A stretch of DNA of 64,000 bases from Candidatus Nanoarchaeia archaeon (GTDB lineage Archaea; Nanobdellota; Nanobdellia; SCGC-AAA011-G17; JACPNG01), in assembly GCA_030745695.1 (NCBI GenBank), contig JASLOB010000001.1, forward strand, positions 936 to 64,935, given 5' to 3'. The translations under genes were made by a program, and so were the position numbers. The notes beneath the pieces are model-generated. The model saw only the letters and a list, made by a program, of their open reading frames with translations, had not been told where the DNA came from and did not search any database. Positions 5,581 to 56,581 of this stretch are shown one piece after another (position 1 is the stretch's first letter; the number at the start of each line of letters is the position of its first letter).

Positions 5581-6591
5581 ATGAGAATAAGAAGAAAAAC
5601 TAAAGAAAATCTACTTTTTGGATTGTTAATCTTATTAGTATTATCTATATTATTAAATGCTTTTTTATTCTCAGAATATATATTTTTAGATTTTTTAAAT
5701 CCAAATAATGATTTTAAATTAGAAGAAGTTATAAAAAAATCAACTCCAGCTGTTGTTTCTATATTCTCTTCAGGCAAATCAGGATCGGGAGTGATTGTAG
5801 AAGATAATGGGTATATATTAACGAATGAACATGTTGTTTCTGGAGAAGAAAATATAACTATACTATTAGAAGATAATAGAATCTATCAAGCAAAAGTAGT
5901 AGGAATGGATGACAAAACAGATATTGCTTTATTAAAAATAGATGAAGATAATCTTCCAACTTTGAAATTTGGAAATTCTAATAGAGTAGAGGTTGGACAA
6001 CAAGTTATTACAATAGGACATCCTTTTGGATTAGCACATACAGTTACTACAGGAATTGTTTCTGGAAAGCATAGAAATAGGGGTCCAACATTATACCGAG
6101 ATTTTATACAAACAGATGCTTCTATCAACCCAGGAAATTCAGGAGGACCTTTACTAAATAAAGAAGGAAAAGTTATAGGATTGAACACATTTATTGTTTC
6201 AGATATAAATGCAGGAGAATCAGGATTTGCAATTCCAATTAATTTAGTAGAAAAAGTTTATGATCAATTATTAGAAGATGGAATAGTTGAAAGAGGTTAT
6301 TTTGGGGTTGATGTTATAGATATTGTAAATGTAAATAATAACACAAGAGAGGGTAGAATAGAAAAAGGATCTGAAATCGTTAATATTCAAAATGAAAGTG
6401 CTGCAGATAAAGCTGGATTAAAGATAGGAGACAAAATTATTGTATTAAACAACATTACAATTGAAAATACTAATCATTTAAGAAATGAGATAGCTTGGAT
6501 TTCTCCAGGAGAAAAAGCTTTAGTTACTATATTAAGAGATGATGAACAAATTGAAATTGAAATAGTTCTAGATCAAAGACCTGACGAGTAA
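5581..6591 (+). CDS. htrA: HtrA/DegP-family trypsin-like serine protease with N-terminal TM anchor and C-terminal PDZ domain
   Basis: The catalytic triad context is present: TNEHVV, DIALLKI and GNSGGPLLN. A PDZ-like C-terminus is also present. Confidence 0.85.
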   Translation: MRIRRKTKENLLFGLLILLVLSILLNAFLFSEYIFLDFLNPNNDFKLEEVIKKSTPAVVSIFSSGKSGSGVIVEDNGYILTNEHVVSGEENITILLEDNRIYQAKVVGMDDKTDIALLKIDEDNLPTLKFGNSNRVEVGQQVITIGHPFGLAHTVTTGIVSGKHRNRGPTLYRDFIQTDASINPGNSGGPLLNKEGKVIGLNTFIVSDINAGESGFAIPINLVEKVYDQLLEDGIVERGYFGVDVIDIVNVNNNTREGRIEKGSEIVNIQNESAADKAGLKIGDKIIVLNNITIENTNHLRNEIAWISPGEKALVTILRDDEQIEIEIVLDQRPDE

Positions 6592-6622
6592 AGCTTATAA
6601 ATCGATAAAATAAAATTTATAT

Positions 6623-6932
6623 GTAGGAAGGTGTCTAACTTTCGAGATTATCTTGAGGAAAGTCCGTCCACCAATTATAGGTTGCTTCTGCAAAGAAGTC
6701 CCAGAAATGGGAGGCAACCGCTAAGAAACGACACGGCCTATTAGAGCAAGGATGTTGTGAAAGTTTTAGTAATAGAACTGAGATAACCAACTGAGTATTT
6801 TGATAGGATACGTTGAAACGACGAGTCCCAACCGGTGCAAGTCTTAGACGCTTAGTTGAATGTTAGAATGAACTTTCAATGATCCATTTTTAATGGTTAG
6901 AGTTCAACAGAAGATGGCTTATGCCTTCCTAC
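6623..6932 (+). ncRNA. rnpB: RNase P RNA (archaeal type)
   Basis: The P4 5' strand (gaggaaagtccg at 6654..6665) and P4 3' strand (acagaag..ggcttatg at 6906..6923) are both present. A P1 helix forms between gtaggaagg and ccttcctac. Confidence 0.8.
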
Positions 6933-6933
6933 T

Positions 6934-7710
6934 TTAATATATTAATTCTCCAGTTCTACTTGAATTTAATCCCCTACTCTCAATTCTAATCTCTCCTCTA
7001 GATGTAACTTTACCAATAACTTTAGACTCAATATTATGTGTTCTTGCAACCTCAATAACTTCTTTTGGTTCAGGAGTTATGATAATCATGCCTTGTCCCA
7101 TATTCCAAGTCCTATATGCTTCTTCATCTGTAACATTTCCATGTTGTTAACAATAAAACATTAGTTCAAAAGGATTAAAAGGATTATAAATATCTGCACC
7201 TAATCCATTTGGTTTTAAAATCCTAGACAATTTTCCTGGAATCCCACCTCCAGTTATATGTGCAATTCCATGTATCTTAGCTTTTGGTTCTCCACCAAAA
7301 CCTCCAAACATATCAACAACTGCTTTAGTATAAATTCTCGAAGGATGTAAAACTAAATCTCCTAAACTTTCAAAACCATACTTAAATTTATGCCATCCAT
7401 CTCCATTAGGAACTAGGATATCTGCTCTTGAGAAACATGATTCATAGACAAAACTAGCTTCAAATAAAGGTTTTTTCTTTTTTAAAGAATCTTTAGATAT
7501 TTCTAAGTTTACTTTAAAATCCTTAAATGGGAGGTCAATTCCATCTGGATATAATTTTTTAGCTAATATTCCTATTTTAGTACCTTGATCCATAACAAAT
7601 TGATCTGCTACTGTAGGTTCTTCTATTTTATGATTTTCATGTATAAATGTCCATAAATGATTATAACAGTTTATACCCATTAAGTATTTAGATTTAGTTA
7701 ATAGTTGCAT
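6934..7710 (-). pseudogene. purM: purM (AIR synthetase) C-terminal half remnant with an in-frame TAA at 7147..7149
   Basis: The PurM C-domain motifs IHGIAHITGGG and TWNMGQGM both occur in one reading frame, and that frame is interrupted by a TAA. The N-terminal domain is absent here; it lies at 14212..14877. Confidence 0.7.
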
Positions 7711-7811
7711 TATTCAATTAAGTGAATTAGATTTATAAATTATTCGTTAGTTTACTAAAAGGGTTTATAAGTCTAGATAACATATTATAATTATAGGAGA
7801 AATTAAAAAAA

Positions 7812-8498
7812 ATGAACCAAATAATACCAAAAGCATTGTTCTATGCATATGAAAAACATAAGAAAGATAAAAGAAAAGGTACAACCATTCCATATATAGT
7901 TCACCCAGTTGATGTTGCTTCTATTTTGATTAAAGAAAGAAATCATTCTAAAGTATCTGATGAATTGATAGCTGCTGGTTTACTACATGATGTTGTTGAA
8001 GACACTGAGACTTCATTTAAAGATATTGAAAAGGAATTCGGAAAAAAAGTAATGATTCTAGTTAAAGCTGCTTCAGAGCCTGAAAAACATAAAGTGGAGT
8101 CTGAAAAGGAGAAAAGAAAAAGTTGGAAAGGAAGGAAAGAGCATACAATTGAACTTATCAAAAAAGAGAAGAGAGATGCTAAACTACTCAGCTGCGCAGA
8201 TAAGCTTGCCAATATAAGGGACATGATTAATGATAAATTTACTGGTAATGAAAAAGAATTCTGGAAAAGATTCAATACCTCACCTGAAGAGACTAAGTGG
8301 TATTATCAAATTATGTGTAAAGCTTATAGATTTGGAGATAATATCAAAGATACTAATACATTCAAAATGTTTGCAAGGGAAGTAAAAACATTAACAGGTG
8401 AAAAGCCTATGAAAAAAGAAAGAAGAACAAAAGAAGACAAAAGACAAGAAGAATTAGATATAAAAGATTATACTGAAATGTCTTATCAGAATAGTTAA
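7812..8498 (+). CDS. HD-domain (p)ppGpp-hydrolase-like protein (SpoT/RelA HD, Mesh1-type small alarmone hydrolase) with a Lys/Glu-rich tail
   Basis: HPVDVASIL...AAGLLHDVVEDT...FGKKV matches the SpoT/RelA HD hydrolase signature. Confidence 0.7.
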   Translation: MNQIIPKALFYAYEKHKKDKRKGTTIPYIVHPVDVASILIKERNHSKVSDELIAAGLLHDVVEDTETSFKDIEKEFGKKVMILVKAASEPEKHKVESEKEKRKSWKGRKEHTIELIKKEKRDAKLLSCADKLANIRDMINDKFTGNEKEFWKRFNTSPEETKWYYQIMCKAYRFGDNIKDTNTFKMFAREVKTLTGEKPMKKERRTKEDKRQEELDIKDYTEMSYQNS

Positions 8499-8510
8499 TA
8501 AGAAAAGAAA

Positions 8511-8729
8511 ATGACAAATAAGAAAAAATTAACAAAATCAAGGAAAGAATATATGGATGAATGGGATAAAATTGAAAAAAAAGTTATGGATGAAATAGAT
8601 GAAGTAACAGAAAAAAAAGCATTTAAATCTGATTCTTTTTTAACTAAAGTGATGAATAAACAAGAAGATGAACTTTTAGGTTATAATGGTTGTAGCATGG
8701 AAAAAAGTTCTATTAAGTTTGTAAGATAA
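8511..8729 (+). CDS. hypothetical small protein (72 aa)
   Basis: ORF only. Confidence 0.3.
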   Translation: MTNKKKLTKSRKEYMDEWDKIEKKVMDEIDEVTEKKAFKSDSFLTKVMNKQEDELLGYNGCSMEKSSIKFVR

Positions 8730-8778
8730 AATTAAAATAACAATAATATTTAAATAAATTAAGAAAATAGATATTTTA

Positions 8779-9297
8779 ATGGAAGATGAAGGTTTTTTTA
8801 AAGGAATATTAAAAACATATCTAATCTTATTTGTTATAAATGTTGTAATAGCTTTTATTCTTTTTCAATTTTCTCCAGAATCCATACCTACATCCTCTGA
8901 TGGTTTTGAATTCGGAGATTATGAAAATAGTACAAGAATTTTTTTCTTTCCTTTATTTCAAATAATGTTTTTATTTATAGGATTAATACTCTATTATATG
9001 GCTCCTTTAATGAATACTCTTTTGTTTTTTTTCCGTGGAAAATATATGAAATTTTTTAGTTGGATGTTTGGAACAGAGGTTAATGAAGAAAACTTTACAT
9101 ATTTTATTAAAAAATATACTAAAGCATTGATTCTAACCGTATCTATAGCTGTTATTCTTAGCTACATCCCATTATTAGCATTTATATTTGAATTAGAATC
9201 TATAATGTTCTTATTTTTAATTTATTTTATTGTTCTTATTATAGGTGGGATAGCTTCCATAGTCTACTTTTGTAGAAAATTGAATCAAACTTATTAA
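8779..9297 (+). CDS. hypothetical integral membrane protein (172 aa, 4-5 predicted TM segments)
   Basis: Several hydrophobic stretches. Confidence 0.45.
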   Translation: MEDEGFFKGILKTYLILFVINVVIAFILFQFSPESIPTSSDGFEFGDYENSTRIFFFPLFQIMFLFIGLILYYMAPLMNTLLFFFRGKYMKFFSWMFGTEVNEENFTYFIKKYTKALILTVSIAVILSYIPLLAFIFELESIMFLFLIYFIVLIIGGIASIVYFCRKLNQTY

Positions 9298-9351
9298 ATT
9301 TTAAAGAATACAATAATACTTAATAAGAGTATAATTTCTTAGCAATCTAAA

Positions 9352-11190
9352 ATGATGTGGAGTTTATATAACAAAGAAAAATTTCTAGAGCCTTTTGTAT
9401 TTTCTAATAATAAATCCCAATTAGATGTTGTACGAGAAACTATAGAAGCAATTAAAGAAGGGAATAAAATAATCTTTATTAAAGGGGTATGCGGAACAGG
9501 CAAAAGTGCAATTGCATTAAATTTAGCCAAAGAATTAGGTAAAACTTCTATTGTTGTTCCTGTTAAACCATTACAAAAACAATATGAAGAAGATTATACT
9601 GATAAACTTCATATCATAAAAAATAATAAAGAAAAATTAAATATTTCTATTATTGATGGAAGGGGTAATCATAATTGTGTGTTTGAGGGGGATTGTAATG
9701 CAGATAATAAATTTTTACCTTGTGATATTGAGATTAAAAAAGAAAATATGGATTTGATTAGAGGTTATATTAACCAAAATCCTTCAGTTAAACTAAAAGA
9801 TTTTGAGGATGTAGAGGATGTAAGAAGAAAATCAATAGCTCCTGCCTGTCCTTATTGGTCTCCAATTATATGTAAGGATTGGTTTGGAGGAAAGTATGAT
9901 TTGGAAGATTCTGAAGAGTTACACTATAAAGGGTTGAATGATAAAACTTTTACTTATTACAAAAGAAAAGAAGGTTGTGGATATTATGGGCAATTTATTA
10001 GTTATGTTAATTCTGATGTTATAATTTTTAATAGTAAAAAATATGAACTAGAAACTGTTATGGATAGAAAACCTTCAACTGAGGTAGAGATTATAGATGA
10101 ATGTGATGAATTTTTAGATAATTTATCTAATGAAAAAAATATAAATCTAGATAGGTTATCAAGAAATTTAACTAATATAACAACTGATGATCTAGAGTTG
10201 AAAGAATTAACAATAGAGATTAATGATTTAGTAGCTGAGATATTAAGAGATGATAATGTTTTAAATTCTATAAAAACTAAAGAAATATTATTAGTTAAAG
10301 ATACAAAAATTTTAGAGTTATTAAAATGGATATTAGACAATCCTAAATTAGTAGATCTGACAGAGGATGAAACCTCTAATTATATTCTTAATGTTTATCA
10401 GACTGGAAAGATGTTTGAAGATTTTTTTGATGAAACTTATTTAACATTCTATAAAGATGATTATAATAATCTAATTGCTAATTTAATAACAGTTAACTTA
10501 GATAAAAAATTAAAAGAATTTTTAGATAAAAATAAAGTATTTGTGATGATGAGTGGAACAGTTCATTCTGATTCTGTTTTAAAAGAGATATTTGGGGTTA
10601 GAGAGTTTAAAGTTGTTGAGGCTGAAATAAATCATAGGGGGGGAATAACTAATGTTAGAAGTGGGTTGGAAAAAATATTTGATTATAGATATTTAAATCA
10701 AGAAGGTTCAAGAGAAGAGTATTTAAGAGCATTATCTAAATCTGTTGAGATAGCTGAAAAACCTATATTAATCCATGTTAATGCTTTTTTAGACCTGCCA
10801 ACCGAAGAAGAATGTTACAAATATAATATTCCTAATCTTAAAACAAGAAAAGAATTACAAGATGAACAAGATAAATTTAAGAAAGGAGAATTAGTTCAAC
10901 AGTTTAAAAATAAAGACATTGATGTTTTGTATTCAACTAAATGTAATAGAGGGGTAGATTTCCCTGGAGATATTTGTAATAGTATAATCTTTACTAAATA
11001 TCCTAATCCTAACATAAGTTCTTTATTTTGGAGAGTTCTTAAGAAAAGTAATTCAAGACATTTTTGGACTTTATTTGGGGATAAAGCTAAAAGAGAATTT
11101 ATGCAAAGGATTTATAGAGGGTTGAGATCTGAAGAGGATCATATTAATTTGTTAAGTCCAGATTTAAGAGTTTTTAATTTTTCTAAGTAA
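9352..11190 (+). CDS. XPD/Rad3/DinG-family SF2 helicase with a 4-Cys FeS domain
   Basis: Walker A GVCGTGKS and DECD (DExx) box are present. The Cys cluster is HNCVFEGDC...LPC...PACPYW...ICKDW. The C-terminal motif CNRGVDFPGD..IIFTKYPNP resembles the XPD GxxSEGxDF...GLPFP motif. Confidence 0.65.
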   Translation: MMWSLYNKEKFLEPFVFSNNKSQLDVVRETIEAIKEGNKIIFIKGVCGTGKSAIALNLAKELGKTSIVVPVKPLQKQYEEDYTDKLHIIKNNKEKLNISIIDGRGNHNCVFEGDCNADNKFLPCDIEIKKENMDLIRGYINQNPSVKLKDFEDVEDVRRKSIAPACPYWSPIICKDWFGGKYDLEDSEELHYKGLNDKTFTYYKRKEGCGYYGQFISYVNSDVIIFNSKKYELETVMDRKPSTEVEIIDECDEFLDNLSNEKNINLDRLSRNLTNITTDDLELKELTIEINDLVAEILRDDNVLNSIKTKEILLVKDTKILELLKWILDNPKLVDLTEDETSNYILNVYQTGKMFEDFFDETYLTFYKDDYNNLIANLITVNLDKKLKEFLDKNKVFVMMSGTVHSDSVLKEIFGVREFKVVEAEINHRGGITNVRSGLEKIFDYRYLNQEGSREEYLRALSKSVEIAEKPILIHVNAFLDLPTEEECYKYNIPNLKTRKELQDEQDKFKKGELVQQFKNKDIDVLYSTKCNRGVDFPGDICNSIIFTKYPNPNISSLFWRVLKKSNSRHFWTLFGDKAKREFMQRIYRGLRSEEDHINLLSPDLRVFNFSK

Positions 11191-11256
11191 ATCAACAGTA
11201 AGTATTATATATTTTATTGATATTTCTATTATTATTATTGAATAAGGAGGTAGAAA

Positions 11257-11448
11257 ATGATATCTGTGAAAAGCTTTACAACCTTAGATTCTGCACTTTG
11301 GGAAACATCTATATTTACAATTACTTTGTTTCTTGTATCTGTTTGGTCAGGTTTTGCAAATTGGGTGATTAATACAAATTGGATGTGGTTCTTAGTTATA
11401 GGGATTCTTTTAGGAATCAAACCTCTAATTAAAGTGTTTAAGAATTAA
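11257..11448 (+). CDS. small membrane protein (63 aa)
   Basis: Strong SD (aaggaggt) 7 nt upstream; two hydrophobic segments. Confidence 0.45.
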   Translation: MISVKSFTTLDSALWETSIFTITLFLVSVWSGFANWVINTNWMWFLVIGILLGIKPLIKVFKN

Positions 11449-11474
11449 TTAATTTTAGAAAGTTGAAGAATATT

Positions 11475-11945
11475 TTAAGAAGAATCAGTACTACGATGAG
11501 GAAATAAAGCTTCCTTTTCTTTCCATTCTTTATTTATTTCTTCACTTGTCTTTATTCTTTCAATAAATTCAATGTAGATTTCCATTCCTTCCATCTCTCT
11601 TAATCTTTCAATTATTTGTTCTTTTCCTACTGAGAATTTTGTAAATCTAGTATAATCTTCAAGATGTCTATTAAAACCATAAGAACAAGGATTAAATAGA
11701 GGGATAGTTGTACTACCAATACCTCCAAAACTTGTTGGTTTCTCTAAATAAAAAGCATCTTTTTTAGTATGGTCACGATAACTAGCCCATTTAGTTAAAT
11801 AAGGAGGTTTGTCTTTACTTTCCATAAGAATTAAATCTCCAAGTTGTGCAGCCCTAGTTTGTACAAGTGGTTCAGTCATAGGACATACAAATTCTGGATA
11901 ATGTCTATCCCTATCTGGATTTAATCTCGTTTTATCAATTACCAT
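11475..11945 (-). CDS. hypothetical protein (156 aa)
   Basis: ORF on the strand opposite its neighbours; I recognise no motif in it. Confidence 0.4.
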   Translation of the reverse strand: MVIDKTRLNPDRDRHYPEFVCPMTEPLVQTRAAQLGDLILMESKDKPPYLTKWASYRDHTKKDAFYLEKPTSFGGIGSTTIPLFNPCSYGFNRHLEDYTRFTKFSVGKEQIIERLREMEGMEIYIEFIERIKTSEEINKEWKEKEALFPHRSTDSS

Positions 11946-12110
11946 ATTAATATAAGTATTCCACTATTTATAAAACTTACTATTTGTTATTACTCAATAG
12001 CAATTAATTATCCTCAGTCTAAACATTATGGAGATTAAAACGAAAATATATTAAATGTTCTAGTTGTTATAAAATGAAATTTCAAAAAATAAAAAGAATA
12101 ACAAATAAAA

Positions 12111-12758
12111 ATGAAAATGTTAGAAAAAACCCCAATTAATGCTTCCTGGCTTGGATCTCATGAATATTGTGAGTGGAAGTGGTATCTAGAAAATGTACTA
12201 AAAGAGAAAGTTCCAATAACACAATCAATGATTGTTGGAAAAAATATTCATCAAGAAAAAGAAGATAAATTTAAAGAAGTTGCTGTTCCAACTACACCTG
12301 AAGAATTTCTAAAATCTAAAGTTTATACAATAACTAAAGAGATGTATCTAAAAGAAGAATTTGATGATTTTATTTTAAAAGGAAAGATAGATGAATTAGG
12401 GGTTGATACAAATAATTTATATGTTATTGATGATAAACCAAGAGCAAAACCCTATCTAGGAGTTAAAAGACAGATATGGGCTTATTGTATTTTAATAAAA
12501 GAATTTGTAAATAAAAATTATCCTGAACATTCTAATAAAAAAGTTTTAGCAATTTTAAGAGATAGAGATTCTAATGTAGAAATATGGAAGGAAGAGTTTA
12601 ATGAAGAAAATCTTAATGAAGTTTTTAGTGTAATCAATAGAATGTTGTTATTATTTAAAAAAGAGATTAATCCTGAACATAATAATTATTCATATAAATG
12701 TAAGGCTTGTGTTTTACATAAAAAGAATCAATTGTTATCTCATTTGATAAAGGCATAG
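12111..12758 (+). CDS. Cas4-like/RecB-family PD-(D/E)xK nuclease (DUF83-like) with a 4-Cys cluster
   Basis: One N-terminal Cys (EYCEWKW) and three C-terminal Cys (YKCKACV) are present. The core reads GKIDEL...YVIDDK. Confidence 0.55.
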   Translation: MKMLEKTPINASWLGSHEYCEWKWYLENVLKEKVPITQSMIVGKNIHQEKEDKFKEVAVPTTPEEFLKSKVYTITKEMYLKEEFDDFILKGKIDELGVDTNNLYVIDDKPRAKPYLGVKRQIWAYCILIKEFVNKNYPEHSNKKVLAILRDRDSNVEIWKEEFNEENLNEVFSVINRMLLLFKKEINPEHNNYSYKCKACVLHKKNQLLSHLIKA

Positions 12759-13309
12759 GTTCTGGATCTGGAAGGAGTATCTCAGAATTTCACATCTTAA
12801 AATCTTTAGATTATTGCAAAGATTTGCTAATTAACTATGGTGGGCATAAACAAGCAATAGGGATGAAAATTAGTATTAAAAGAATAGGTAAGTTTAGGAA
12901 TAAAATAAATGATTATGCAAAGGATAAACTAAAACCATCAGATCTAATTCCTAAGATAAAAGTTGATGCTCTTCTTTCTTTTGAGGATATAAATTTAAAT
13001 TTAGTTAAAGAAATTGATTCATTAAGCCCTTTTGGTGTGGGGAATCCTTCACCAAAGATATGTTCTCTCAATCTAAAGTTAGAAGATGATCCATTTATTC
13101 TAAAAGAGAGGCATATAAAACTTAGATTAGGAAATAATCTAAAAGTTTTAGAATGTATTGGATTTGAGATGATTAGTTTTTTTGATGAAATAATGAAGAA
13201 CATAGATAAGATTAATATAGTTTATTCTCCAGAAATAAATGTATGGAATGGGGTAGAACAAATAATATTAAATTTAAAAGATATTAAAGGTGGAAAGATT
13301 GAAATTTAG
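12722..13309 (+). pseudogene. C-terminal fragment of a RecJ-like DHH/DHHA1 phosphoesterase (N-terminal DHH domain missing)
   Basis: It carries the DHHA1 GGH..A.G motif (NYGGHKQAIGM) and the RecJ C-terminal SPFGVGNPSP motif. The frame is open from 12722 and overlaps the end of the Cas4-like gene. It has no ATG; the track start at 12824 is a TTG. Confidence 0.5.
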
Positions 13310-13402
13310 ATAATCCATTATTACTTTTAAGTGAATTCTACTAAAAAATATAAGTCTATAAATACTTTAAAGACTTCTTACTAAAAAAAGGAGGTTTCTA
13401 AG

Positions 13403-13747
13403 ATGCATGAAGTACAAAGAATAGCATTACAAAATATGTTAGAAAATTTAAAAGAAGGAAAAGAGATACATACAGAAACTATGATCTTCGTTTTAGAAGC
13501 TGCTCTACAAGAGGAGTTTGAATACGAGGATGTTAAATATAAAGAGTTTGAGATGGAAGATGTATTCAATAGGGTATTAAGAGGAAAAAATTCACTATCT
13601 GAAGAAAAAATACATCTAAAGTCTATAAGAAAAGCTGAAAATCATATTAATGTATTAAGAGAAGGGTTAGATGATTTATACAAACAAATTAATTCATTAA
13701 ATGTTGATTTAGATAGGAAAGAAAGAGTAAAAAGAGCTCTTTCTTAG
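13403..13747 (+). CDS. hypothetical coiled-coil protein (114 aa)
   Basis: SD aaggaggt upstream; ORF only. Confidence 0.4.
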   Translation: MHEVQRIALQNMLENLKEGKEIHTETMIFVLEAALQEEFEYEDVKYKEFEMEDVFNRVLRGKNSLSEEKIHLKSIRKAENHINVLREGLDDLYKQINSLNVDLDRKERVKRALS

Positions 13748-13772
13748 TTAGAATTAGAAGATCAATGTTAAT

Positions 13773-14087
13773 ATGGAAAAATGGAAAAAGATTCATTGTG
13801 ATCTTTGTAAAAAGATAGCTGGAAAGATACGTCCTGTATGTGAAGGTATCAATGAAATTAGTAAATCTCAAGCTAATATACAATATTTTCATTCTAAAAA
13901 GAAGATATATAAAATTCTCTACTTTTGTAGTGTTTTTTGTGCTTTAAAAAAATATTTTGAAATAAATAAAAAAAAATGGGATGAAATCCTACTTGGTTTC
14001 CATCTTCCAGATAAATCTAAATTTTATTATACTTTAGAACATAAAAACAATAGAGATATAATAAAAAGAGAAAGTATGATTATTTAA
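13773..14087 (+). CDS. hypothetical Cys-rich (zinc-finger-like) protein (104 aa)
   Basis: Cys pairs CDLC...CEG and a later pair CSVFC suggest a zinc finger. Confidence 0.35.
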   Translation: MEKWKKIHCDLCKKIAGKIRPVCEGINEISKSQANIQYFHSKKKIYKILYFCSVFCALKKYFEINKKKWDEILLGFHLPDKSKFYYTLEHKNNRDIIKRESMII

Positions 14088-14211
14088 TATTAAATATTCT
14101 GGATCTTTTAACAATCCCTTTTCTATACAAAAACATTGCGATCATAATACCTAACCCAATACCTGTTATCAGACCGCCAATTGTAAACCAAATGTATTCA
14201 TTCATTTTTCA

Positions 14212-14877
14212 TCAAGATATCATCAATAAACAGATAGCATCTGCTTTTACTGCTGCTGGAGGTACTTTTGTAGCAAGTAGTGTTATCGCTCCAACTGCCA
14301 AACATCCTACATCTGCAAGTTCTCTTGGACCAAGTCCTGATTTAGGGATAGCATATTCTATACTACAATCTACCCCACTCCCCTTACAGAATTCTTTAAA
14401 TGCATTCTCTTGAGGAGGTCTTTTAGCACCAGGACTGGTCTTAGCATCAATGATTTTTAATTTAGTTATCTCCCCATTTTTTTGAAAAACTTCTAAAAAA
14501 TCAGGTTCTTTTTTGAAAGTTCGTTCAAAATTTACCCTTATAAAATCCCTAGTACTCTTTCCACCCCTCACAACTGCATCATCACAAACCATAGCAAATA
14601 AATCATGAGCAACAGTTTTATGTTTAGCCATTCTTTCGGCTATTTCTATTTTAGTGCCAACCCCATCAAATCCTAAATTCATATAAGTATCATCTGGTAG
14701 CCCTCAAACATTCACTGCTCTAAGGCCTGAAAAATCAGAAAAGATTTCAACAACTTCCCCAAGATTTCCTTTTCTATTTTTCCAAGTAAGTTTAGCTGCT
14801 TCATAAAGAACTTTTGATGCATCATCACCAAGTTTGATATTTACTCCAGAATTTTCATAATTTGATCTTTCTTGCAT
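14212..14877 (-). pseudogene. purM: purM (AIR synthetase) N-terminal half remnant with an in-frame TGA at 14704..14706
   Basis: The PurM N-domain signatures YENSGVNIKLGDDA and LGFDGVGTK...DLFAMVCDDAVVRGG...DVGCLAVGAI are present. A TGA interrupts the frame 57 codons after the ATG. The remnant ends where the 7710 fragment begins in a PurM alignment. Confidence 0.7.
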
Positions 14878-14928
14878 TTGTTAAATTTCTTTTTTTATTC
14901 TACTATTTCTTTTTACTCTTGCTCTTGT

Positions 14929-15219
14929 TCAATTTTCTATTTCAGAAAGACGTTCTTCTATAGTCTCTTTAATGCTTAATAAGATCTCCCTATCAGCCCC
15001 ATCAATTATAATTGAATCACTACACGTTTCTATCTCAACTCTACTTCCACGAGCAATAGATATCCCTTGAGTACAAAATGCTTTATGTGCACTAACACTT
15101 GTTTGTGCTATAACATAACCTTCATTTTCATTATTTCCTTCAGATCCATTATAATCATAATTGCGATCTGACTCACCTTTCCTAAGAATTCTATAAACTG
15201 GGAAATTAATCTCTAACAT
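14929..15219 (-). CDS. hypothetical protein (96 aa)
   Basis: ORF only. Confidence 0.35.
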   Translation of the reverse strand: MLEINFPVYRILRKGESDRNYDYNGSEGNNENEGYVIAQTSVSAHKAFCTQGISIARGSRVEIETCSDSIIIDGADREILLSIKETIEERLSEIEN

Positions 15220-15283
15220 TTTTCTTTATTACTATAAATTTTAGAAGAAGTGACAAACTTATAAAACTTTCTAAATTATTTAA

Positions 15284-16057
15284 TTATCCTGTAAATAATC
15301 TTCCAGTTACTAATTTTTTAAAGAAATTTTTAACTTTAGATAAAAAATTTGTTTTTTCTTGGATTACTTCTTTAGTTTGATCTTTAACTTCTTCTTTAAT
15401 CTCTTCTTTTATTTGTTGAGGTTCTTCTTTAATTTCTTCTACTACTTCAACTTCTTCTACTACTTCAATCTCTTCTTGAACTCCACAACCAGAAATATCT
15501 TCATTAAAACATGTTCCATCTTCACAATAATCTTTTGTGCATTCTTCATTATCTTCACATTGAGAGGTTTTAATACAAAAAAATTGATGATAGCATTTTT
15601 TCTTTTTACAAGTATCTTCTGTAATAGAATCTTTATCATCACAATCTACATCCTCTTTACATTCTGGAATTATAATCAATTTACATTGTTCATTACTACA
15701 TTCATATCCTGATTTACATCCACAATCTGAACAACAATTATTTTTTTCTACATCATCACATTTATCATCTCCACATATATAGATTGAAGAAGCAGATATA
15801 TCTGCATAATTAATTTCATCGTCACCAGCATAAAAAATTTCTAAAACTTCTATCTCTAATCCATTAACAATTTTAGTTTCAAATTCATTTAAAATAGCAC
15901 CTTGGCCATCGACATCTATTTTTATTGAGTTAGGACTAACACCATTTAAAGTTAGATTACTATTACTAACAACCATATTTTCATTTGTCTTTAATTTATC
16001 AGCTAAGGATATATTAGCAAGGATTAATATCATTAATATAAGAATTATCCACCTCAT
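15284..16057 (-). CDS. secreted Cys-rich protein with acidic EEVEVVEEIKEE repeats (257 aa)
   Basis: It has an N-terminal signal peptide, dense Cys clusters (CCSDCGCKSGYEC...) and a C-terminal Glu/Val/Ile/Lys repeat. Confidence 0.55.
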   Translation of the reverse strand: MRWIILILMILILANISLADKLKTNENMVVSNSNLTLNGVSPNSIKIDVDGQGAILNEFETKIVNGLEIEVLEIFYAGDDEINYADISASSIYICGDDKCDDVEKNNCCSDCGCKSGYECSNEQCKLIIIPECKEDVDCDDKDSITEDTCKKKKCYHQFFCIKTSQCEDNEECTKDYCEDGTCFNEDISGCGVQEEIEVVEEVEVVEEIKEEPQQIKEEIKEEVKDQTKEVIQEKTNFLSKVKNFFKKLVTGRLFTG

Positions 16058-16133
16058 TTTATTATGAATATTAACTTATTTTTAATGTTTTCTAAAACAA
16101 AAGATTTTTATACTAATCTAATCACAAACTAAA

Positions 16134-16304
16134 ATGGCAGATGAAAAAATACAAATGCCTTCTTCAGGAGGAGGATTAGTAAGATATTTTGAAGATTATA
16201 AAAGTAAATTACAATTTAAACCTCATTATGTTATTGCTTTCATACTAATAGTTGTAATAATAGAATTGATTCTTTTTAGGGTTGGTTCCAGATTTTTAAG
16301 TTAA
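16134..16304 (+). CDS. secG: preprotein translocase Sec61 beta subunit (56 aa; not in the ORF track)
   Basis: MADEKIQMPSSGGGLVRYFEDY... followed by a single C-terminal TM segment matches the archaeal Sec-beta signature. It sits immediately upstream of NAC. Confidence 0.65.
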   Translation: MADEKIQMPSSGGGLVRYFEDYKSKLQFKPHYVIAFILIVVIIELILFRVGSRFLS

Positions 16305-16305
16305 A

Positions 16306-16632
16306 ATGTTTCCAAACGTAAATCCAAAACAATTAGAAAAAGCTATGAAAAAGCTTGGAGTAAAACAAGAAGATATAGAAGCTTCTGAAGTTTTAATAAA
16401 AACAAAAGATAAAGATTTAGTAATAAGAAACCCAAATGTAGTTAAAGTAAACATGATGGGTCAAGAAACATTTCAAATTACTGGAGATATAGAAGAACAA
16501 GAAAAAGAATTGTTCAATGAAGAAGATGTTAAAACTGTAATGGAACAAACTAACTGTTCTAAAGAAGAAGCAATTGAAGCTTTAGAAAAAGAAAAAGATT
16601 TGGCTGCAGCAATCTTATCTTTAAATCAATAA
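16306..16632 (+). CDS. nac: nascent polypeptide-associated complex protein (archaeal NAC alpha with C-terminal UBA)
   Basis: A NAC domain (MMGQETFQITG) is followed by a UBA-like C-terminus (CSKEEAIEALEKEKDLAAAI). Confidence 0.8.
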   Translation: MFPNVNPKQLEKAMKKLGVKQEDIEASEVLIKTKDKDLVIRNPNVVKVNMMGQETFQITGDIEEQEKELFNEEDVKTVMEQTNCSKEEAIEALEKEKDLAAAILSLNQ

Positions 16633-16662
16633 TATTTATATATTTTCCAACTATGAATATAT

Positions 16663-17154
16663 ATGGAAGTTTTAAGGAGTTTAATAAAAGAAGCAAATAT
16701 GTTATTTAACACAGCAGATCATTTAACTTACATAACTTATCCTACAGTAAGAGAAAATAAATTAATGATAACAATAATTGAAAATTTATACAATTCATTA
16801 TCAAAAGGAATGGACGCAATTTTATATTATGACAGAATGTATAAAAGAATTTCTCCTTTCTCTGATAACTTTAATGTGAAACTAGAAGTTTTTAAAACAA
16901 AATGTGCTCCAAGGTATAATATAGATAGAGAATTTGTTTTATTAATCAATGATTTAAAACAGATTGTAGATCATAGAAAAACATCTCCAATTGAATTTAG
17001 TAGAAATGATAGATATATTATATGTAGTGAAGATTATAGGATGAAATCATTAACAATAGAAAAACTAAAAGAATATCTAGCCAAATCAAAAACATTTATA
17101 GGGAAGTTAAACAATATTTTTAGAGAACATGATAGAAGAATCAGACAGTATTGA
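16663..17154 (+). CDS. hypothetical protein, paralog A (163 aa)
   Basis: It shares the N-terminal ADHLxY(I/V)T motif and overall pattern with the downstream ORF. Confidence 0.45.
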   Translation: MEVLRSLIKEANMLFNTADHLTYITYPTVRENKLMITIIENLYNSLSKGMDAILYYDRMYKRISPFSDNFNVKLEVFKTKCAPRYNIDREFVLLINDLKQIVDHRKTSPIEFSRNDRYIICSEDYRMKSLTIEKLKEYLAKSKTFIGKLNNIFREHDRRIRQY

Positions 17155-17575
17155 AGATGCTCAATCTCAACTAAAGAGAGCAGACCATTTGTTATATGTA
17201 ACATTAAAGTATACAAGAACGGTTGATGTAATTAAGAGTATAATAAAAAGATTCATATCTGCGTTTGATCATTCTGTTGAAGAAATGCTAGAAAAGTCTA
17301 AAGATAAGAAAAGAATTAAAACTATTCCTAAATCCCCTATTGAAAAAATTGAATTAATTAAAAAAATAGTTAAAACTAAAGAAATGAGAGATTATATAAA
17401 GTTCTATTATTTACTTAGAACAATAGATAAAGCTACATTTAAACCAAGAGAAGAGTATAGAAAGCATGTAACATTAGTAACGCCAAAACATGAAGTAGAT
17501 GTAGAAAAGATAAAAGAATTCTATGAAAAAACAAAAGAATTTGTAGGATTCTCACATGAATTCAAAGGAAGATGA
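17129..17575 (+). CDS. hypothetical protein, paralog B (148 aa)
   Basis: Tandem paralog of 16663..17154. Its start overlaps the upstream gene and its stop overlaps the MinD-like start. Confidence 0.45.
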   Translation: MIEESDSIEDAQSQLKRADHLLYVTLKYTRTVDVIKSIIKRFISAFDHSVEEMLEKSKDKKRIKTIPKSPIEKIELIKKIVKTKEMRDYIKFYYLLRTIDKATFKPREEYRKHVTLVTPKHEVDVEKIKEFYEKTKEFVGFSHEFKGR

Positions 17576-18345
17576 CAAGATACATTACATGTATATCTGG
17601 AAAAGGAGGAGTGGGTAAAAGTACTACTTCTATCAACTTAGGGGCAGCATTTACTTATTTTGGTAAGGATACCACAGTTGTTGATGCAAATTTGACCACA
17701 CCCAATGTAGGTGTTCATCTAGGAGTTCCAATTGTTCCAATTAATTTAAATCATGCTTTACAAGGAAAGAATCATATAAGTGAAGCAGTTTATTTACATC
17801 CTGTTGGAACAAAAATTGTTCCTGCTGGAATCTCAATTAATGAGATGAAAAATACAAATCCTGGAAATTTAAGAAGGGTTCTAAGAGGATTGTTGGGCAC
17901 AACTGATTTAGTTTTGATAGATTCTGCAGCAGGGTTAGGAAGAGAAGCGTTACTAGCAATTGAATCTGGAGATGAGATATTAATTGTTACAAATCCAGAA
18001 CTTCCTGCAATAACAGATGCACTAAAAACAATTAAAGTAGCAGAAGAATTAGGAAAAAAAGTAACTGGAGTAGTGTTAACTAGAACTAAAGAAGAAAGAG
18101 GAGATTTATCTGTAAAAAATATAGAAATTATGCTTGATAAAAAAGTTGTTGGTGAAATTCCAGAAGATGAATCTATAAGGGAAGCATTAATAATGAAAGA
18201 TGTTGTAGTTTATACTCACCCTAAAAGTAATGCTGCAGTAAGTTATAAAAAATTAGCAGCTGCATTATTAAATAGAGAGTATGAAGAAGAAATTGAAGAA
18301 GGAACATTTAAAAAATTATTAAGAAAGTTAAAATTGGTTAGATAA
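17572..18345 (+). CDS. minD: MinD/ParA-family P-loop ATPase
   Basis: It has the deviant Walker A SGKGGVGKST and MinD-like length and motifs. Confidence 0.75.
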   Translation: MTRYITCISGKGGVGKSTTSINLGAAFTYFGKDTTVVDANLTTPNVGVHLGVPIVPINLNHALQGKNHISEAVYLHPVGTKIVPAGISINEMKNTNPGNLRRVLRGLLGTTDLVLIDSAAGLGREALLAIESGDEILIVTNPELPAITDALKTIKVAEELGKKVTGVVLTRTKEERGDLSVKNIEIMLDKKVVGEIPEDESIREALIMKDVVVYTHPKSNAAVSYKKLAAALLNREYEEEIEEGTFKKLLRKLKLVR

Positions 18346-18376
18346 GTTTTATAAATCTTTATTCTAAAAAATTAAA

Positions 18377-19303
18377 ATGGTATGTAAAAATTGTAGTCTC
18401 AAACCAGTAATTGAACTAACAAATAATAATGTAAAATTATGTAAATCATGTTTTGTTAAATACTTTGAAAAAAAAGCATTTAGAACAATATCAAAATATA
18501 ATTTAATAGATAGTAAAGATGTAATAGGTGTTGCAGTTTCTGGAGGAAAAGATTCTTTTGCTGTATTAAATATTATCAGTTTATTAGCTAATAAAAAAAG
18601 AGATATTAAAGTTAAAGTGATAGCAATAGATGAAGGAATACAAAATTATAGAGATTTAAATTTATTAAAAAAATATTGTAAAGAAAATGATTTAGATTTG
18701 AATATTTATTCTTTTAAAAAAGAATTTGGAATGTCTTTAGATATCATCAAAGATAAAATCCATTTAAAACCATGTAGTGCTTGTGGTGTATTGAGAAGAC
18801 TTTTATTAAACTCAAAAGCTAGAGAATTAAAAGTTGATAAATTAGCTACAGGTCATAATTTAGATGATGAAGCACAAAATGTTTTAATGAATTTATTTAG
18901 AGGAAATTTAGAAAGATCAGCTCGTCTTGGTCCAACAACTGGAGTTAGAAAAGATAAAAAATTCATCCCAAGAATAAAACCATTATACTTTTTAATGGAA
19001 AAAGAAGTTGCGACTTATTCATTTATAAAAAAATTCCCAGTAGATTTTAATGAATGCCCTAATTCTAAAAAATCTTATAGATCTGAAGTAAGAATGTTAT
19101 TAAATAACTTCGAACAGAAGCAAAATGGAACTAAAAATGCTATAATCAACTCATTTATAGAAGAACTCCCATTATTAAAGAAAAAATTTGAAAATGCTGA
19201 AATAAGATCATGTAAAAATTGTGGGGAACCATGTTCTAGCGATATATGTAAAGCATGTGAACTAATTGAAACAATCAAAACAAAACCTTTAAAAAAAATA
19301 TAA
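18377..19303 (+). CDS. ncsA: tRNA thiolation PP-loop ATPase (Ncs6/Ctu1/TtuA family) with N- and C-terminal zinc fingers
   Basis: The PP-loop SGGKDS is present, with CxxC pairs at both termini. Confidence 0.7.
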   Translation: MVCKNCSLKPVIELTNNNVKLCKSCFVKYFEKKAFRTISKYNLIDSKDVIGVAVSGGKDSFAVLNIISLLANKKRDIKVKVIAIDEGIQNYRDLNLLKKYCKENDLDLNIYSFKKEFGMSLDIIKDKIHLKPCSACGVLRRLLLNSKARELKVDKLATGHNLDDEAQNVLMNLFRGNLERSARLGPTTGVRKDKKFIPRIKPLYFLMEKEVATYSFIKKFPVDFNECPNSKKSYRSEVRMLLNNFEQKQNGTKNAIINSFIEELPLLKKKFENAEIRSCKNCGEPCSSDICKACELIETIKTKPLKKI

Positions 19304-19316
19304 ACTTAGCATTATT

Positions 19317-19721
19317 ATGGAGTTGATAACAAAAAAATATTTTAAAATAGAAGAAGCTAACTCTTTAATCCCAAAACTTTCTAAAATACTAATTCAAATA
19401 ATGAAAATTAATAACCATCTTAGTATGATCAATTCCATTTCAGTTGATTATGAAGATGAATTAAAATCAATTAAAAATGATATTTCTGTGAATAAAAATT
19501 TTCATAGATTATACTATAATTTATACAAAAAGATAGAAATGCTTACTAATCTAGGTTGTATTGTAAAAGATGCAGATTTGGGCATAGTTGATTTTTATTC
19601 TATGTTAGAAGGAAGAGAGATCTTATTATGTTGGAAGTTAGGTGAAAAAGAGATTAAATTTTGGCATTATGCTGATGAAAGTTATGCTGGAAGAAAATCT
19701 ATTGATATGTTAAAAGAATAA
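19317..19721 (+). CDS. DUF2203-like hypothetical protein
   Basis: The C-terminal pattern GCIVKDADLGIVDF...LLCWKLGE..FWH resembles DUF2203. Confidence 0.4.
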   Translation: MELITKKYFKIEEANSLIPKLSKILIQIMKINNHLSMINSISVDYEDELKSIKNDISVNKNFHRLYYNLYKKIEMLTNLGCIVKDADLGIVDFYSMLEGREILLCWKLGEKEIKFWHYADESYAGRKSIDMLKE

Positions 19722-19723
19722 AA

Positions 19724-21628: not shown

Positions 21629-21652
21629 TTTTCTTAATCTTGAGAATTACTT

Positions 21653-54089: not shown

Positions 54090-54187
54090 CGCCCTGACCG
54101 GGATTCGAACCCGGGTTGTAGCCTCGACAGGGCATCACGGTATATGATTAAATATACTTACGTGCTAGGCCACTACACTATCAGGGC
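54090..54187 (-). tRNA. tRNA-Asp(GTC) precursor with a 25-nt intron in the 5' strand of the anticodon stem (between positions 28/29)
   Basis: Removing 54158..54134 gives a perfect cloverleaf with anticodon arm tagcc-ctGTCga-ggcta and T-loop ttcgaat. The gene is 3 nt from tRNA-Lys. Confidence 0.55.
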
Positions 54188-56480: not shown

Positions 56481-56486
56481 ATACTC

Positions 56487-56581
56487 TGGGCCTAGACGGA
56501 TTTGAACCGTCGACCTCTGGCTGACCTAAGCCAAAGTGGCCATATAAGACCAGCGCTCTAACCAAGCTGAGCTATAGGCCC
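56487..56581 (-). tRNA. tRNA-Ile(TAT) precursor with a 20-nt intron at the canonical 37/38 position
   Basis: Ile-type body gggcctatagctcagcttggttagagcg, anticodon stem ctggt/gccag, loop cttata|a after removing 56542..56523. Confidence 0.55.

What the first reader, a model, noticed from the sequence alone, without database searches (positions are those of the whole stretch)
6934..14877. purM is broken into two same-strand remnants 6.5 kb apart, each with an in-frame stop
The PurM N-domain is at 14877..14212 and the C-domain is at 7710..6934, both on the minus strand. In a PurM alignment the N-part ends (…AVKADAICLL) where the C-part begins (…MGINCYNHLW), so one gene appears to have been cut by the intervening block. 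Each half also carries a premature stop at an alignable position. The N-half has a TGA at 14704..14706 just before the GFDGVGTK motif, and the C-half has a TAA at 7147..7149 before TWNMGQGM. TGA is a genuine stop in this genome: rpoA1 and rps12 both end in TGA with ATGA overlaps. This therefore looks like a decaying purine-biosynthesis gene, not a functional split gene or a recoded one.
Basis: partly seen in the sequence, partly recalled or inferred. Interest (0 to 1): 0.7.

Follow-up and report, generated by a model that had tools for sequence, protein, structure and literature searches.

The report
Broken PurM-like gene with 7 kb insertion
In an uncultured marine Woesearchaeota-type archaeon, a PurM-like gene lost its middle third to a 7.2 kb piece of chromosomal DNA and then gained two stop codons, so it is an ordinary recently dead gene, not a split or recoded one.

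Summary
The two same-strand PurM-like remnants and both in-frame stops are real. They are identical in all independent metagenome assemblies that cover them (TGA in 4 of 4, TAA in 10 of 10).

- **Extent:** Only 14877..14557 (family residues 1-107) and 7406..6937 (residues 220-375) are PurM-like.
- **Missing middle:** About 114 central codons are absent, so the N part does not abut the C part.
- **Misread junction:** One is the C-terminal 115 residues of a signal-peptide protein with a PD-(D/E)xK-like motif (14556..14212). The other is the first 106 residues of a DUF2779-type nuclease (7710..7393).
- **Ancestral state:** A sister lineage (L104, 90-97% nucleotide identity) has the intact 375-residue gene between the same neighbours. 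Exactly 342 nt there are replaced here by 7,155 nt (7407-14561).
- **Inserted DNA:** It carries the lineage's own conserved helicase/Cas4-like locus. It has no integrase, transposase, terminal repeats or viral relatives.
- **Junctions:** Both show microhomology (GGTG; TGGAGAT..ATGG), which points to illegitimate recombination.
- **Stops:** They are single-base changes (GGA>TGA, CAA>TAA), and TGA and TAA are normal stops here.
- **Age:** dN/dS is 0.16-0.25, so the decay is recent.
- **Identity:** Whether the family is true PurM is doubtful.

The parts
14557..14877 (-). PurM-like N-terminal remnant (family residues 1 to about 107). It keeps the DGVGTK and DLFAMVCDDAVVRG motifs.
   Evidence: tblastn gives 79% identity to P0007 residues 5-106. 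TIGR00878 profile positions 2-95 are matched. It is 88.8% identical in protein to the intact sister gene in L104, and nucleotide collinearity with L104 ends at window 14562.
14704..14706 (-). In-frame TGA at codon 58 of the N remnant.
   Evidence: It aligns with Gly in L104 and in P0004, P0007 and P0102, a single G>T change from GGA. It is present in 4 of 4 assemblies that cover it.
14212..14556 (-). Gene Y fragment, fused in frame behind the PurM-like N remnant. It is the C-terminal ~115 residues of a 218-293 residue family that has an N-terminal signal peptide and a PD-(D/E)xK-like motif (EPDFLEV...IIDAKTS). The fragment lacks the first ~105-125 residues of that family.
   Evidence: tblastn gives 40-58% identity to P0141 and P0181-P0193. 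An exhaustive phmmer search found 15 relatives, matched in their C-terminal parts. The alignment shows that all invariant residues are kept. There is no Pfam or NCBIfam hit. The nuclease assignment is inferred from the motif only.
14562..14565 (-). Junction 1 microhomology, GGTG, shared by the PurM-like parent (L104) and a Y homologue (L011).
   Evidence: Three-way nucleotide comparison.
7407..14561 (.). The 7,155 nt inserted segment that replaces 342 nt (114 codons) of the ancestral gene.
   Evidence: blastn aligns window 14562-22337 to L104 7767-1 (94.1%) and window 6587-7406 to L104 8931-8110 (90.2%). The L104 gene 7452-8579 is an uninterrupted 375-residue ORF.
7812..8498 (+). HD_4 domain protein inside the insert.
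   Evidence: Pfam PF13328, E = 5.5e-19.
9352..11190 (+). 612-residue ResIII/Helicase_C_2 helicase inside the insert. It is a conserved chromosomal gene of this archaeal lineage.
   Evidence: Pfam hits. 341 relatives were found in GTDB genomes, and the 80 kept are all Woesearchaeota, Pacearchaeota, Nanoarchaeota or unclassified archaeal MAGs. There are none in IMG/VR. It is 92.6% identical in nucleotides to L024.
12111..12758 (+). Cas4/Exo5-like PD-(D/E)XK nuclease inside the insert. It is syntenic with the helicase in relative L024.
   Evidence: Weak Pfam PDDEXK_1 and Exo5 hits. 93.5% nucleotide identity to L024 up to window 12732.
12824..13309 (+). ORF with only a RecJ OB domain, which I read as a 5'-truncated RecJ remnant. 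It starts just after the break in synteny with L024.
   Evidence: Pfam RecJ_OB, E = 8.9e-25, with no DHH or DHHA1 domain. Similarity to L024 ends at 12732.
7393..7710 (-). Gene X fragment, fused in frame in front of the PurM-like C remnant. It is the first 106 residues of a DUF2779-type PD-(D/E)xK nuclease and is cut immediately before the catalytic DIIEVKS motif.
   Evidence: 40-58% identity to P0122-P0140, four of which carry PF11074.
7393..7406 (-). Junction 2 microhomology. TGGAGAT (7405..7399) and ATGG (7396..7393) are shared by the PurM-like parent and a DUF2779-type homologue, and both parents encode G-D-x-W there.
   Evidence: Three-way nucleotide comparison.
6934..7406 (-). PurM-like C-terminal remnant (family residues 220-375, plus the natural stop at 6934-6936). 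It keeps HITGGG and TWNMGQGM.
   Evidence: tblastn. Pfam AIRS_C, E = 5.8e-18. TIGR00878 profile positions 211-331. 82% protein identity to L104/P0002.
7147..7149 (-). In-frame TAA in the C remnant.
   Evidence: It aligns with a Gln conserved in at least 90% of 100 family members, a single C>T change from CAA. It is present in 10 of 10 assemblies.
6623..6932 (+). Archaeal RNase P RNA. It is the flanking marker that shows conserved synteny with the intact gene in the sister lineage.
   Evidence: Rfam RF00373 scores 153.5 bits in the window and 159.1 bits next to the gene in L012.

Best explanation
This is a recently inactivated gene in a near-clonal, repeatedly sampled marine population of a Woesearchaeota-type DPANN archaeon.

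The ancestor had one 375-residue PurM-like ('AIR synthase-related') gene. It lay between a 96-residue ORF and the RNase P RNA gene. In this lineage, 342 bp from the middle of that gene (codons ~107-219) were replaced by a 7,155 bp stretch of DNA.

The inserted DNA looks like the lineage's own chromosomal DNA, not a foreign element. It carries a conserved helicase, a Cas4-like nuclease, an HD-domain gene and several small ORFs. Its two ends lie inside two unrelated nuclease-type genes, so it looks like a fragment cut or copied at arbitrary points.

Both joints sit on short shared sequences: 4 nt at one, and 7 + 4 nt at the other. I therefore infer illegitimate, microhomology-guided recombination. 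That could be end joining of a DNA fragment at a double break, or replicative template switching. The joints happen to be in frame, which creates two chimeric ORFs.

Two single-base nonsense mutations (GGA>TGA and CAA>TAA) also lie in the remnants.

What is shown: the replacement, the ancestral state, the microhomologies, the stops and their fixation in every assembly examined. What is inferred: the recombination mechanism, the source of the fragment and the order of events.
For: - **Ancestral state and exact breakpoints:** L104 has the intact gene in the order NAC, Sec61beta, 257-residue ORF, 96-residue ORF, gene, RNase P RNA, protease, 23S rRNA. Collinearity stops at window 14562 and resumes at 7406.
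- **Missing middle:** family residues 107-219 are found nowhere in the window.
- **Ends of the insert are truncated genes:** the DUF2779-type N terminus and the Y-family C terminus.
- **Microhomology at both joints**.
- **The insert looks native:** the helicase has relatives in 341 stretches of archaeal genomes of this clade and none in viral contigs. Its divergence from relative L024 (92.6-93.5% nucleotide identity) matches the divergence of the flanks from L104 (90-97%). GC content matches the rest of the window.
- **No mobile-element machinery:** there are no flanking terminal repeats, and no integrase or transposase was found among nine insert ORFs scanned.
- **Not an artefact:** ten assemblies from different samples show the same structure and the same stops.
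- **Standard genetic code**.
- **Recent event:** dN/dS against L104 is 0.16 for the N remnant and 0.25 for the C remnant, within the range of neighbouring genes (0.05-0.51), at dS of about 0.4. The remnants violate none of the family's conserved columns beyond the stop and the junction residue.
- **Precedent:** microhomology-mediated end joining operates in archaea (PMC12281630).
Against: - The donor locus was not found, so cut-and-paste, copy, and uptake from a conspecific cannot be told apart.
- L024 and L104 could not be shown to be the same genome, so the 'native location' of the helicase locus is inferred.
- Microhomologies of 4-7 nt in DNA that is 73% A+T are not rare by chance. The homologues used for X and Y are distant, so the true parental sequences at the joints are unknown.
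- Two nonsense mutations are somewhat more than expected given so little other decay. My rough estimate, not a tool result, is p = 0.03-0.12 if only 5-10 neutral changes occurred.
- A second, intact copy elsewhere in the genome cannot be excluded from a 64 kb window. However, no protein closer than the 82%-identical P0002 turned up in the 5.8-billion-protein search.
Confidence: 0.85

Rival explanations
1. The insert is a discrete mobile element (integrative element, transposon, or a homing-nuclease cassette) that targeted the conserved DDAVVRGAEP-coding site of the gene. Later deletions removed its ends and 342 bp of the target.
For: - Nuclease-type genes lie at both ends and inside the insert.
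- One strain variant (L004) carries a Phage_integrase gene about 2 kb away, just beyond NAC.
- An unrelated groundwater contig (L013) has a PurM-like gene that starts at family residue 108, with an unrelated opposite-strand gene upstream. That is a break at the same codon.
Against: - The insert has no integrase, transposase or recombinase, and no terminal inverted or direct repeats at its ends.
- Both terminal genes are truncated, not intact.
- The insert contains a core helicase of the lineage whose divergence from a relative matches that of the flanks.
- There are no viral-contig relatives.
- Other short N-terminal fragments of the family proved to be adjacent frameshifted ORFs or contig ends, not the same break.
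- L013 is a single 1.9 kb contig at 3x coverage.
Confidence: 0.08
2. It is a functional split gene of the Nanoarchaeota type: the pieces are translated separately and assemble into an active enzyme.
For: - Split genes are known in DPANN archaea (PMC6349945).
- Both pieces are in the same orientation and well conserved, with dN/dS of 0.16-0.25.
Against: - 114 codons from the middle of the protein are absent from the window: the second half of the AIRS N domain profile and the first part of the AIRS_C profile.
- Each piece carries a premature stop.
- The breaks fall inside domains, not between them.
- Each piece is fused to a fragment of another gene.
- The closest relative has a single intact gene.
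Confidence: 0.03
3. The stops are recoded or read through (TGA as Gly, TAA as Gln), so the chimeric ORFs are translated in full.
For: Each stop lies exactly where relatives have the residue that a known reassignment would supply: Gly for TGA and Gln for TAA.
Against: - TGA ends 7 and TAA ends 36 of the 53 long ORFs, including large ORFs of 855, 543 and 383 residues that end in TGA.
- No other long ORF needed an internal stop to be read.
- A single-base change from the ancestral codon explains each position.
- Even if read through, the product lacks a third of the enzyme.
Confidence: 0.02
4. It is an assembly or sequencing artefact.
For: The sequence comes from metagenome assembly, and the region is A+T rich.
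Against: Ten independent assemblies from different samples and pipelines (ENA, JGI and Logan records) show the same structure at 99.75-100% identity. Contigs span both junctions, and the stops are identical.
Confidence: 0.01

Closest known systems
[quoted passage not shown]
   Same: A conserved gene is intact in the nearest relative. Here it is disabled by an insertion-deletion plus nonsense mutations, and the disabled form is present in every assembly of a near-clonal population.
   Different: The lesion can be reconstructed to the base because a sister lineage keeps the ancestral locus. Both joints are in-frame fusions with fragments of other genes, which is unusual but not unprecedented.
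Microhomology-mediated end joining / illegitimate recombination (shown experimentally in Haloferax, PMC12281630; double illegitimate recombination in bacterial transformation, cited from my own knowledge)
   Same: There are short shared sequences at both joints (4 nt and 7 + 4 nt), target sequence is lost, and the inserted fragment has arbitrary end points.
   Different: The archaeal experiments describe deletions, not capture of a 7 kb fragment. No enzymology can be tested here. Replicative template switching would leave the same scars.
Split protein genes of Nanoarchaeum equitans and other DPANN archaea (PMC6349945)
   Same: Two same-strand pieces of one gene lie kilobases apart in a small archaeal genome.
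   Different: Functional split genes cover the whole protein, break between domains and are intact ORFs. Here a third of the protein is missing and both pieces carry stops.
SSV-type integration, which splits a gene on the integrating circle
   Same: The layout target-N::X...X'::target-C first suggested a single crossover between the gene and a gene on a circular element.
   Different: This was tested and rejected. The two fused fragments belong to different families: a DUF2779-type N terminus and the C terminus of a signal-peptide protein. There is also no integrase.
PurM (AIR synthetase, TIGR00878; Pfam AIRS + AIRS_C)
   Same: Intact relatives align end to end with the PurM profile (positions 2-331 of 332) and have both domains. 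The nearest solved structures are PurM.
   Different: Relatives score below the equivalog cut-off (203-211 against 236). They are not found next to purine genes in the relatives examined. They occur in lineages reported to lack de novo purine synthesis.

Membership tests
PurM (TIGR00878 equivalog) | Whole-protein score at or above the curated cut-off (236.35 bits) | tested here: not met
   Intact relatives P0007, P0013 and P0038 score 211, 205 and 203 bits. The window fragments score 53.7 and 75.7 bits.
PurM (TIGR00878 equivalog) | Both AIRS (PF00586) and AIRS_C (PF02769) domains are present and complete | tested here: not met
   This is met in the intact relative P0007. In the window, only AIRS positions 9-64 of 112 (below the gathering score) and AIRS_C positions 35-153 of 156 remain.
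PurM (TIGR00878 equivalog) | Genomic association with other de novo purine genes | tested here: not met
   No purine gene lies within 6-8 kb in L015 or L016. PurK and PurF probes found 0 and 1 hits in 80 related loci. None was found among about 40 window ORFs scanned. The test is limited to two probes and one window.
Pseudogene | An intact orthologue at the syntenic position in a close relative | tested here: met
   L104 has a 375-residue ORF with the same neighbours on both sides.
Pseudogene | Disabling lesions | tested here: met
   114 codons are deleted, 7,155 nt are inserted, and there are two nonsense codons.
Pseudogene | Relaxed selection on the remnants | tested here: inconclusive
   dN/dS is 0.16 and 0.25 against 0.05-0.51 for neighbouring genes. 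There are no excess violations of conserved columns, and no polymorphism within the population. This is consistent with a very recent event.
Functional split gene (Nanoarchaeota type) | The pieces together cover the whole protein and each piece is an intact ORF | tested here: not met
   Residues 107-219 are missing, and each piece has a stop.
Functional split gene (Nanoarchaeota type) | The split is shared by related lineages | tested here: not met
   The sister lineage is unsplit. About 100 family members are single ~375-residue proteins.
Discrete mobile element insertion | Terminal repeats and/or a target-site duplication | tested here: not met
   No repeats pair the two ends. The target shows a 342 nt loss, not a duplication.
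Discrete mobile element insertion | An element-encoded integrase, transposase or recombinase | tested here: not met
   None was found among nine insert ORFs scanned with Pfam. The small ORFs at 11257-11448 and 14080-14205 were not scanned.
Microhomology-mediated illegitimate recombination | Short shared sequence at each joint between the two parental sequences | tested here: met
   GGTG at joint 1, and TGGAGAT plus ATGG at joint 2. The parents for X and Y are represented only by distant homologues.
Microhomology-mediated illegitimate recombination | Dependence on end-joining or template-switching enzymes | not testable with these tools
   This needs genetics in a cultivated relative.
Stop-codon reassignment | The codon is not used to terminate conserved genes and occurs in frame in many genes | tested here: not met
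   TGA ends 7 long ORFs and TAA ends 36.
DUF2779-type nuclease (gene X) | Homology to proteins that carry PF11074, including the PD-(D/E)xK core | tested here: inconclusive
   The first 106 residues are 40-58% identical to the N termini of such proteins. The fragment stops before the EVK motif and before the PF11074 region itself, and the fragment has no Pfam hit.

The most novel reading that the evidence does not exclude
The event may have created a new gene rather than only debris. The 156-residue ORF at 14682..14212 joins 40 residues of the PurM-like protein to the Y-family domain. It retains every invariant residue of that domain (EPD...DAK...Q...F). It has also lost the family's signal peptide, so the domain would become cytoplasmic. 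On this reading the upstream TGA and the TAA in the other chimera were selected, either to trim harmful fusion proteins or to free this ORF. That would explain why there are two nonsense mutations amid almost no other decay.
Probability: 0.06. Interest if true: 0.5.

Novelty: new member of a known kind. Interest (0 to 1): 0.22.

Why it matters
It matters mainly as a clean, base-resolved example of how genes die in small archaeal genomes. A piece of the cell's own chromosome was captured into a gene by microhomology, with the ancestral state preserved in a sister lineage and the derived state present in every assembly of the population examined.

It also flags that the widespread ~375-residue 'PurM' of DPANN archaea is an orphan of uncertain function, and that at least this marine lineage can do without it. 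The same family also turned up under a candidate-phyla-radiation bacterial name. Genome-based metabolic reconstructions should not count this gene as evidence of purine synthesis. None of this is surprising to a specialist.

Tried and rejected
1. **Single-crossover (SSV-like) integration.** I suspected that the DUF2779-type N fragment and the fragment behind the PurM-like N remnant were two halves of one gene on a circular element. A concatenated query gave only weak collinear similarity (36% over 33 residues, E = 1.7). The exhaustive search then showed that the second fragment belongs to a different family, with a signal peptide and its own N-terminal region. Rejected.

I also saw a faint resemblance between ...FCKGSGVDCSIEY.../...AVGAI...ADAICLL and the GGETAEMP region of E. 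coli PurM as I recalled it from memory. The homologues of gene Y explain this stretch fully. Rejected.

3. **A recurrent break hotspot at codon ~107.** A search with the N remnant returned many ~105-125 residue proteins. The two I traced in long contigs are adjacent frameshifted ORFs of otherwise whole genes next to PurK or PurF. Others are probably contig-end fragments, and the search itself favoured short proteins. Only L013 remains as a possible second case.

4. **Viral or plasmid origin of the insert.** No relative of the helicase was found in IMG/VR.

5. **Shared synteny.** The contexts of the DUF2779-type homologues (L018, L019) share nothing with the insert.

6. **A conserved RuBisCO/NUDIX neighbourhood for the PurM-like family.** This was seen in L016 and L015 but in none of 80 further loci.

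7. **A GC-rich island at 14240-14420 as a hidden RNA gene.** There was no Rfam or tRNA hit. The region is the coding sequence of gene Y.

Full report
**Setting.** The window begins with an archaeal 23S rRNA (1-2917) and contains an archaeal RNase P RNA at 6623-6932. GC content is about 27%. Relatives of its genes are all Woesearchaeota, Pacearchaeota or Nanoarchaeota MAGs. The same sequence occurs at 99.75-100% identity in ten independent metagenome assemblies held by ENA, JGI and Logan, several of them named TARA or marine metagenome. It is therefore a near-clonal, repeatedly sampled marine DPANN population.

**Checking the observation.** ORF listing and translation show four minus-strand ORFs: 14877..14704, 14682..14212, 7710..7147 and 7101..6934.
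- Profile searches recognise PurM only in parts of them. The N piece matches TIGR00878 positions 2-95 of 332, and the C piece matches positions 211-331. Pfam and PDB searches agree.
- A protein search found a large family of ~375-residue 'AIR synthase-related' proteins in DPANN archaea; one listed member (P0047) carries a Staskawiczbacteria name.
- tblastn with intact members places family residues 5-106 at 14862..14557 and residues 220-375 at 7404..6937. There is no trace of residues 107-219 anywhere in the 64 kb.
- The in-frame TGA (14704-14706) aligns with Gly. The TAA (7147-7149) aligns with a Gln conserved in at least 90% of 100 members.
- Both stops are present in every assembly that covers them, 4 of 4 and 10 of 10.
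- All three stop codons terminate long ORFs in the window: TAA 36, TAG 10 and TGA 7. Large ORFs of 855, 543 and 383 residues end in TGA.

So the remnants and the stops are real.

**What the extra sequence is.**
- Residues 1-106 of the ORF at 7710.. are 40-58% identical to the N termini of DUF2779-type (PF11074-bearing) nucleases. They stop exactly before the catalytic DIIEVKS motif of those proteins.
- The 115 residues after DDAVVRG in the ORF ending at 14212 match the C-terminal part of a small family of 218-293 residue proteins. That family has an N-terminal signal peptide and an invariant EPD...DAK motif. It has no Pfam or NCBIfam model.
- I tested whether these two fragments are halves of one gene, which would have indicated a single crossover with a circular element. 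They are not.

**Ancestral state.** A scan of metagenome contigs with the closest C-part relative (P0002) recovered L104, a 36.7 kb contig from a sister lineage.
- L104 has an uninterrupted 375-residue gene. Its neighbours are the same as in the window: NAC, Sec61beta, a 257-residue ORF and a 96-residue ORF on one side, and the protease and 23S rRNA on the other. The RNase P RNA next to the gene was confirmed on the overlapping contig L012.
- Nucleotide collinearity runs from window 22337 down to 14562 (94.1%) and resumes at 7406 (90.2%).
- The 342 nt of L104 between those two points are replaced in the window by 7,155 nt.
- Three-way comparison at the joints shows shared GGTG at joint 1, and TGGAGAT plus ATGG at joint 2. 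At joint 2 both parents encode G-D-x-W.

**Nature of the insert.**
- It encodes an HD_4 protein, a 612-residue ResIII/Helicase_C_2 helicase, a Cas4/Exo5-like nuclease, a RecJ OB-domain-only remnant and several ORFs without matches.
- The helicase is a conserved gene of this archaeal clade, with 341 relatives in GTDB genomes. It is absent from IMG/VR.
- A close relative, L024, shares the helicase and the Cas4-like gene at 92.6-93.5% nucleotide identity in a different context. Several indels and a synteny break after window 12732 separate the two.
- No repeats pair the ends of the insert. No integrase or transposase was found among nine insert ORFs scanned.
- The insert is therefore best read as native chromosomal DNA, itself a mosaic, captured into the gene. 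It does not look like a mobile element.

**Timing.** Against L104, dN/dS is 0.16 for the N remnant and 0.25 for the C remnant. Neighbouring genes range from 0.05 to 0.51, at dS of about 0.4. The remnants are as close to the family as the intact sister gene is. Apart from one change shared with the sister (F>Y), their only departures at conserved columns are the stop and the junction residue. Most of the divergence therefore accumulated while the gene was functional, and inactivation is recent. The order of the insertion and the two nonsense mutations cannot be resolved, because the population shows no variation in the remnants.

**Is it purM?** Intact relatives align end to end with the PurM profile but fall below the equivalog cut-off, at 203-211 bits against 236.
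- In two relatives the neighbours are unrelated genes such as RuBisCO form III-like, NUDIX and PRK.
- PurK and PurF probes found 0 and 1 hits in 80 related loci.
- About 40 window ORFs scanned include no purine gene.
- The literature reports that DPANN archaea mostly lack de novo purine synthesis (PMC8091004, PMC6349945, PMC7414124).
- I therefore call the gene PurM-like. The 'decaying purine pathway' framing is unproven.

**Other broken copies.** Several MAGs and contigs carry the family as two adjacent ORFs (L014, L020/L021, L022/L023). These are simple frameshifts or small gaps, not the structure seen here. L013 starts at residue 108 behind an unrelated gene. It is the only hint of a recurrent break site, and it is a single low-coverage contig.

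**Verdict.** This is an ordinary, recently formed pseudogene with an unusually well-resolved history. A native 7.2 kb fragment replaced the middle of the gene by microhomology-guided illegitimate recombination, giving in-frame fusions to two truncated nuclease-type genes. Two nonsense mutations accompany it, and the whole structure is present in every assembly of the population examined. Its anatomy and its pathway label do not.

Noticed in passing
window ~1896; L104 14241-14940: The sister lineage L104 has about 700 nt inside its 23S rRNA gene that the window lacks. The blastn alignment breaks at window 1896. This may be an rRNA intron or insertion.
   Followed up: no
window ~16633 onward; L004 1-1023: One strain variant (L004, ERZ27286381) diverges from the window immediately after the NAC gene. 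There it carries a 338-residue Phage_integrase (tyrosine recombinase) gene in place of the window's 163-residue, 148-residue and CbiA/ParA genes. This suggests a strain-specific integrated element or replacement about 2 kb from the broken gene.
   Followed up: no
window 12733-13309: The 161-residue ORF has only a RecJ OB domain and the tail of DHHA1 (it begins ...GGHKQA). It starts just after similarity to L024 ends at 12732, and the last residues of the Cas4-like protein also differ from L024. It looks like a second truncated gene at another rearrangement joint inside the insert.
   Followed up: partly
window 8753-9314 and 11191-12083: Relative L024 lacks the 172-residue membrane-protein gene between the 72-residue ORF and the helicase. 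L024 also has a different 103-residue ORF where the window has the 63-residue and 156-residue ORFs. The helicase locus is a hotspot of small gene gains and losses.
   Followed up: partly
window 6587; L104 8932-9581 / L012 948-1598: The sister lineage has an extra 216-residue gene of unknown function between the RNase P RNA and the protease gene. The window lacks it.
   Followed up: no
window 9352-11190 and 16134-16632; L032-L048: In more distant relatives the helicase lies between NAC and Sec61beta (NAC on the opposite strand, helicase, Sec61beta on the opposite strand). In the window Sec61beta and NAC are adjacent and co-directional, and the helicase is 5 kb away. This points to an older rearrangement of the same neighbourhood.
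   Followed up: partly
P0141, P0181-P0193; window 14212-14556: The 'Y' family has about 15 representatives at 50% clustering. Its members have a signal peptide, a conserved G.xWE...C...C region, an EPDFLEV...IIDAKTS motif and a Cys-containing hydrophobic C terminus. It has no Pfam or NCBIfam model and may be an uncharacterised secreted nuclease family.
   Followed up: partly
L014 2734-4069; L020 6001-7130; L022 6001-7084; L013 634-1440: The PurM or PurM-like gene is broken into two ORFs, or N-terminally truncated, in several other MAGs and contigs. I did not determine whether these are real pseudogenes or assembly errors.
   Followed up: partly
L016 6680-9143; L015 4456-9171: In two relatives the intact PurM-like gene lies next to nucleotide-salvage-type genes (RuBisCO large subunit and NUDIX in one; PRK, 2'-5' RNA ligase and NUDIX in the other). 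This context was not found in 80 other loci.
   Followed up: partly
window 56486-56582 and 54090-54187: Rfam calls a 95 nt tRNA at 56487-56581, probably intron-containing, to which ARAGORN could not assign an anticodon. ARAGORN also reports an odd 98 nt 'tRNA-???' at 54090-54187 that Rfam does not support.
   Followed up: no
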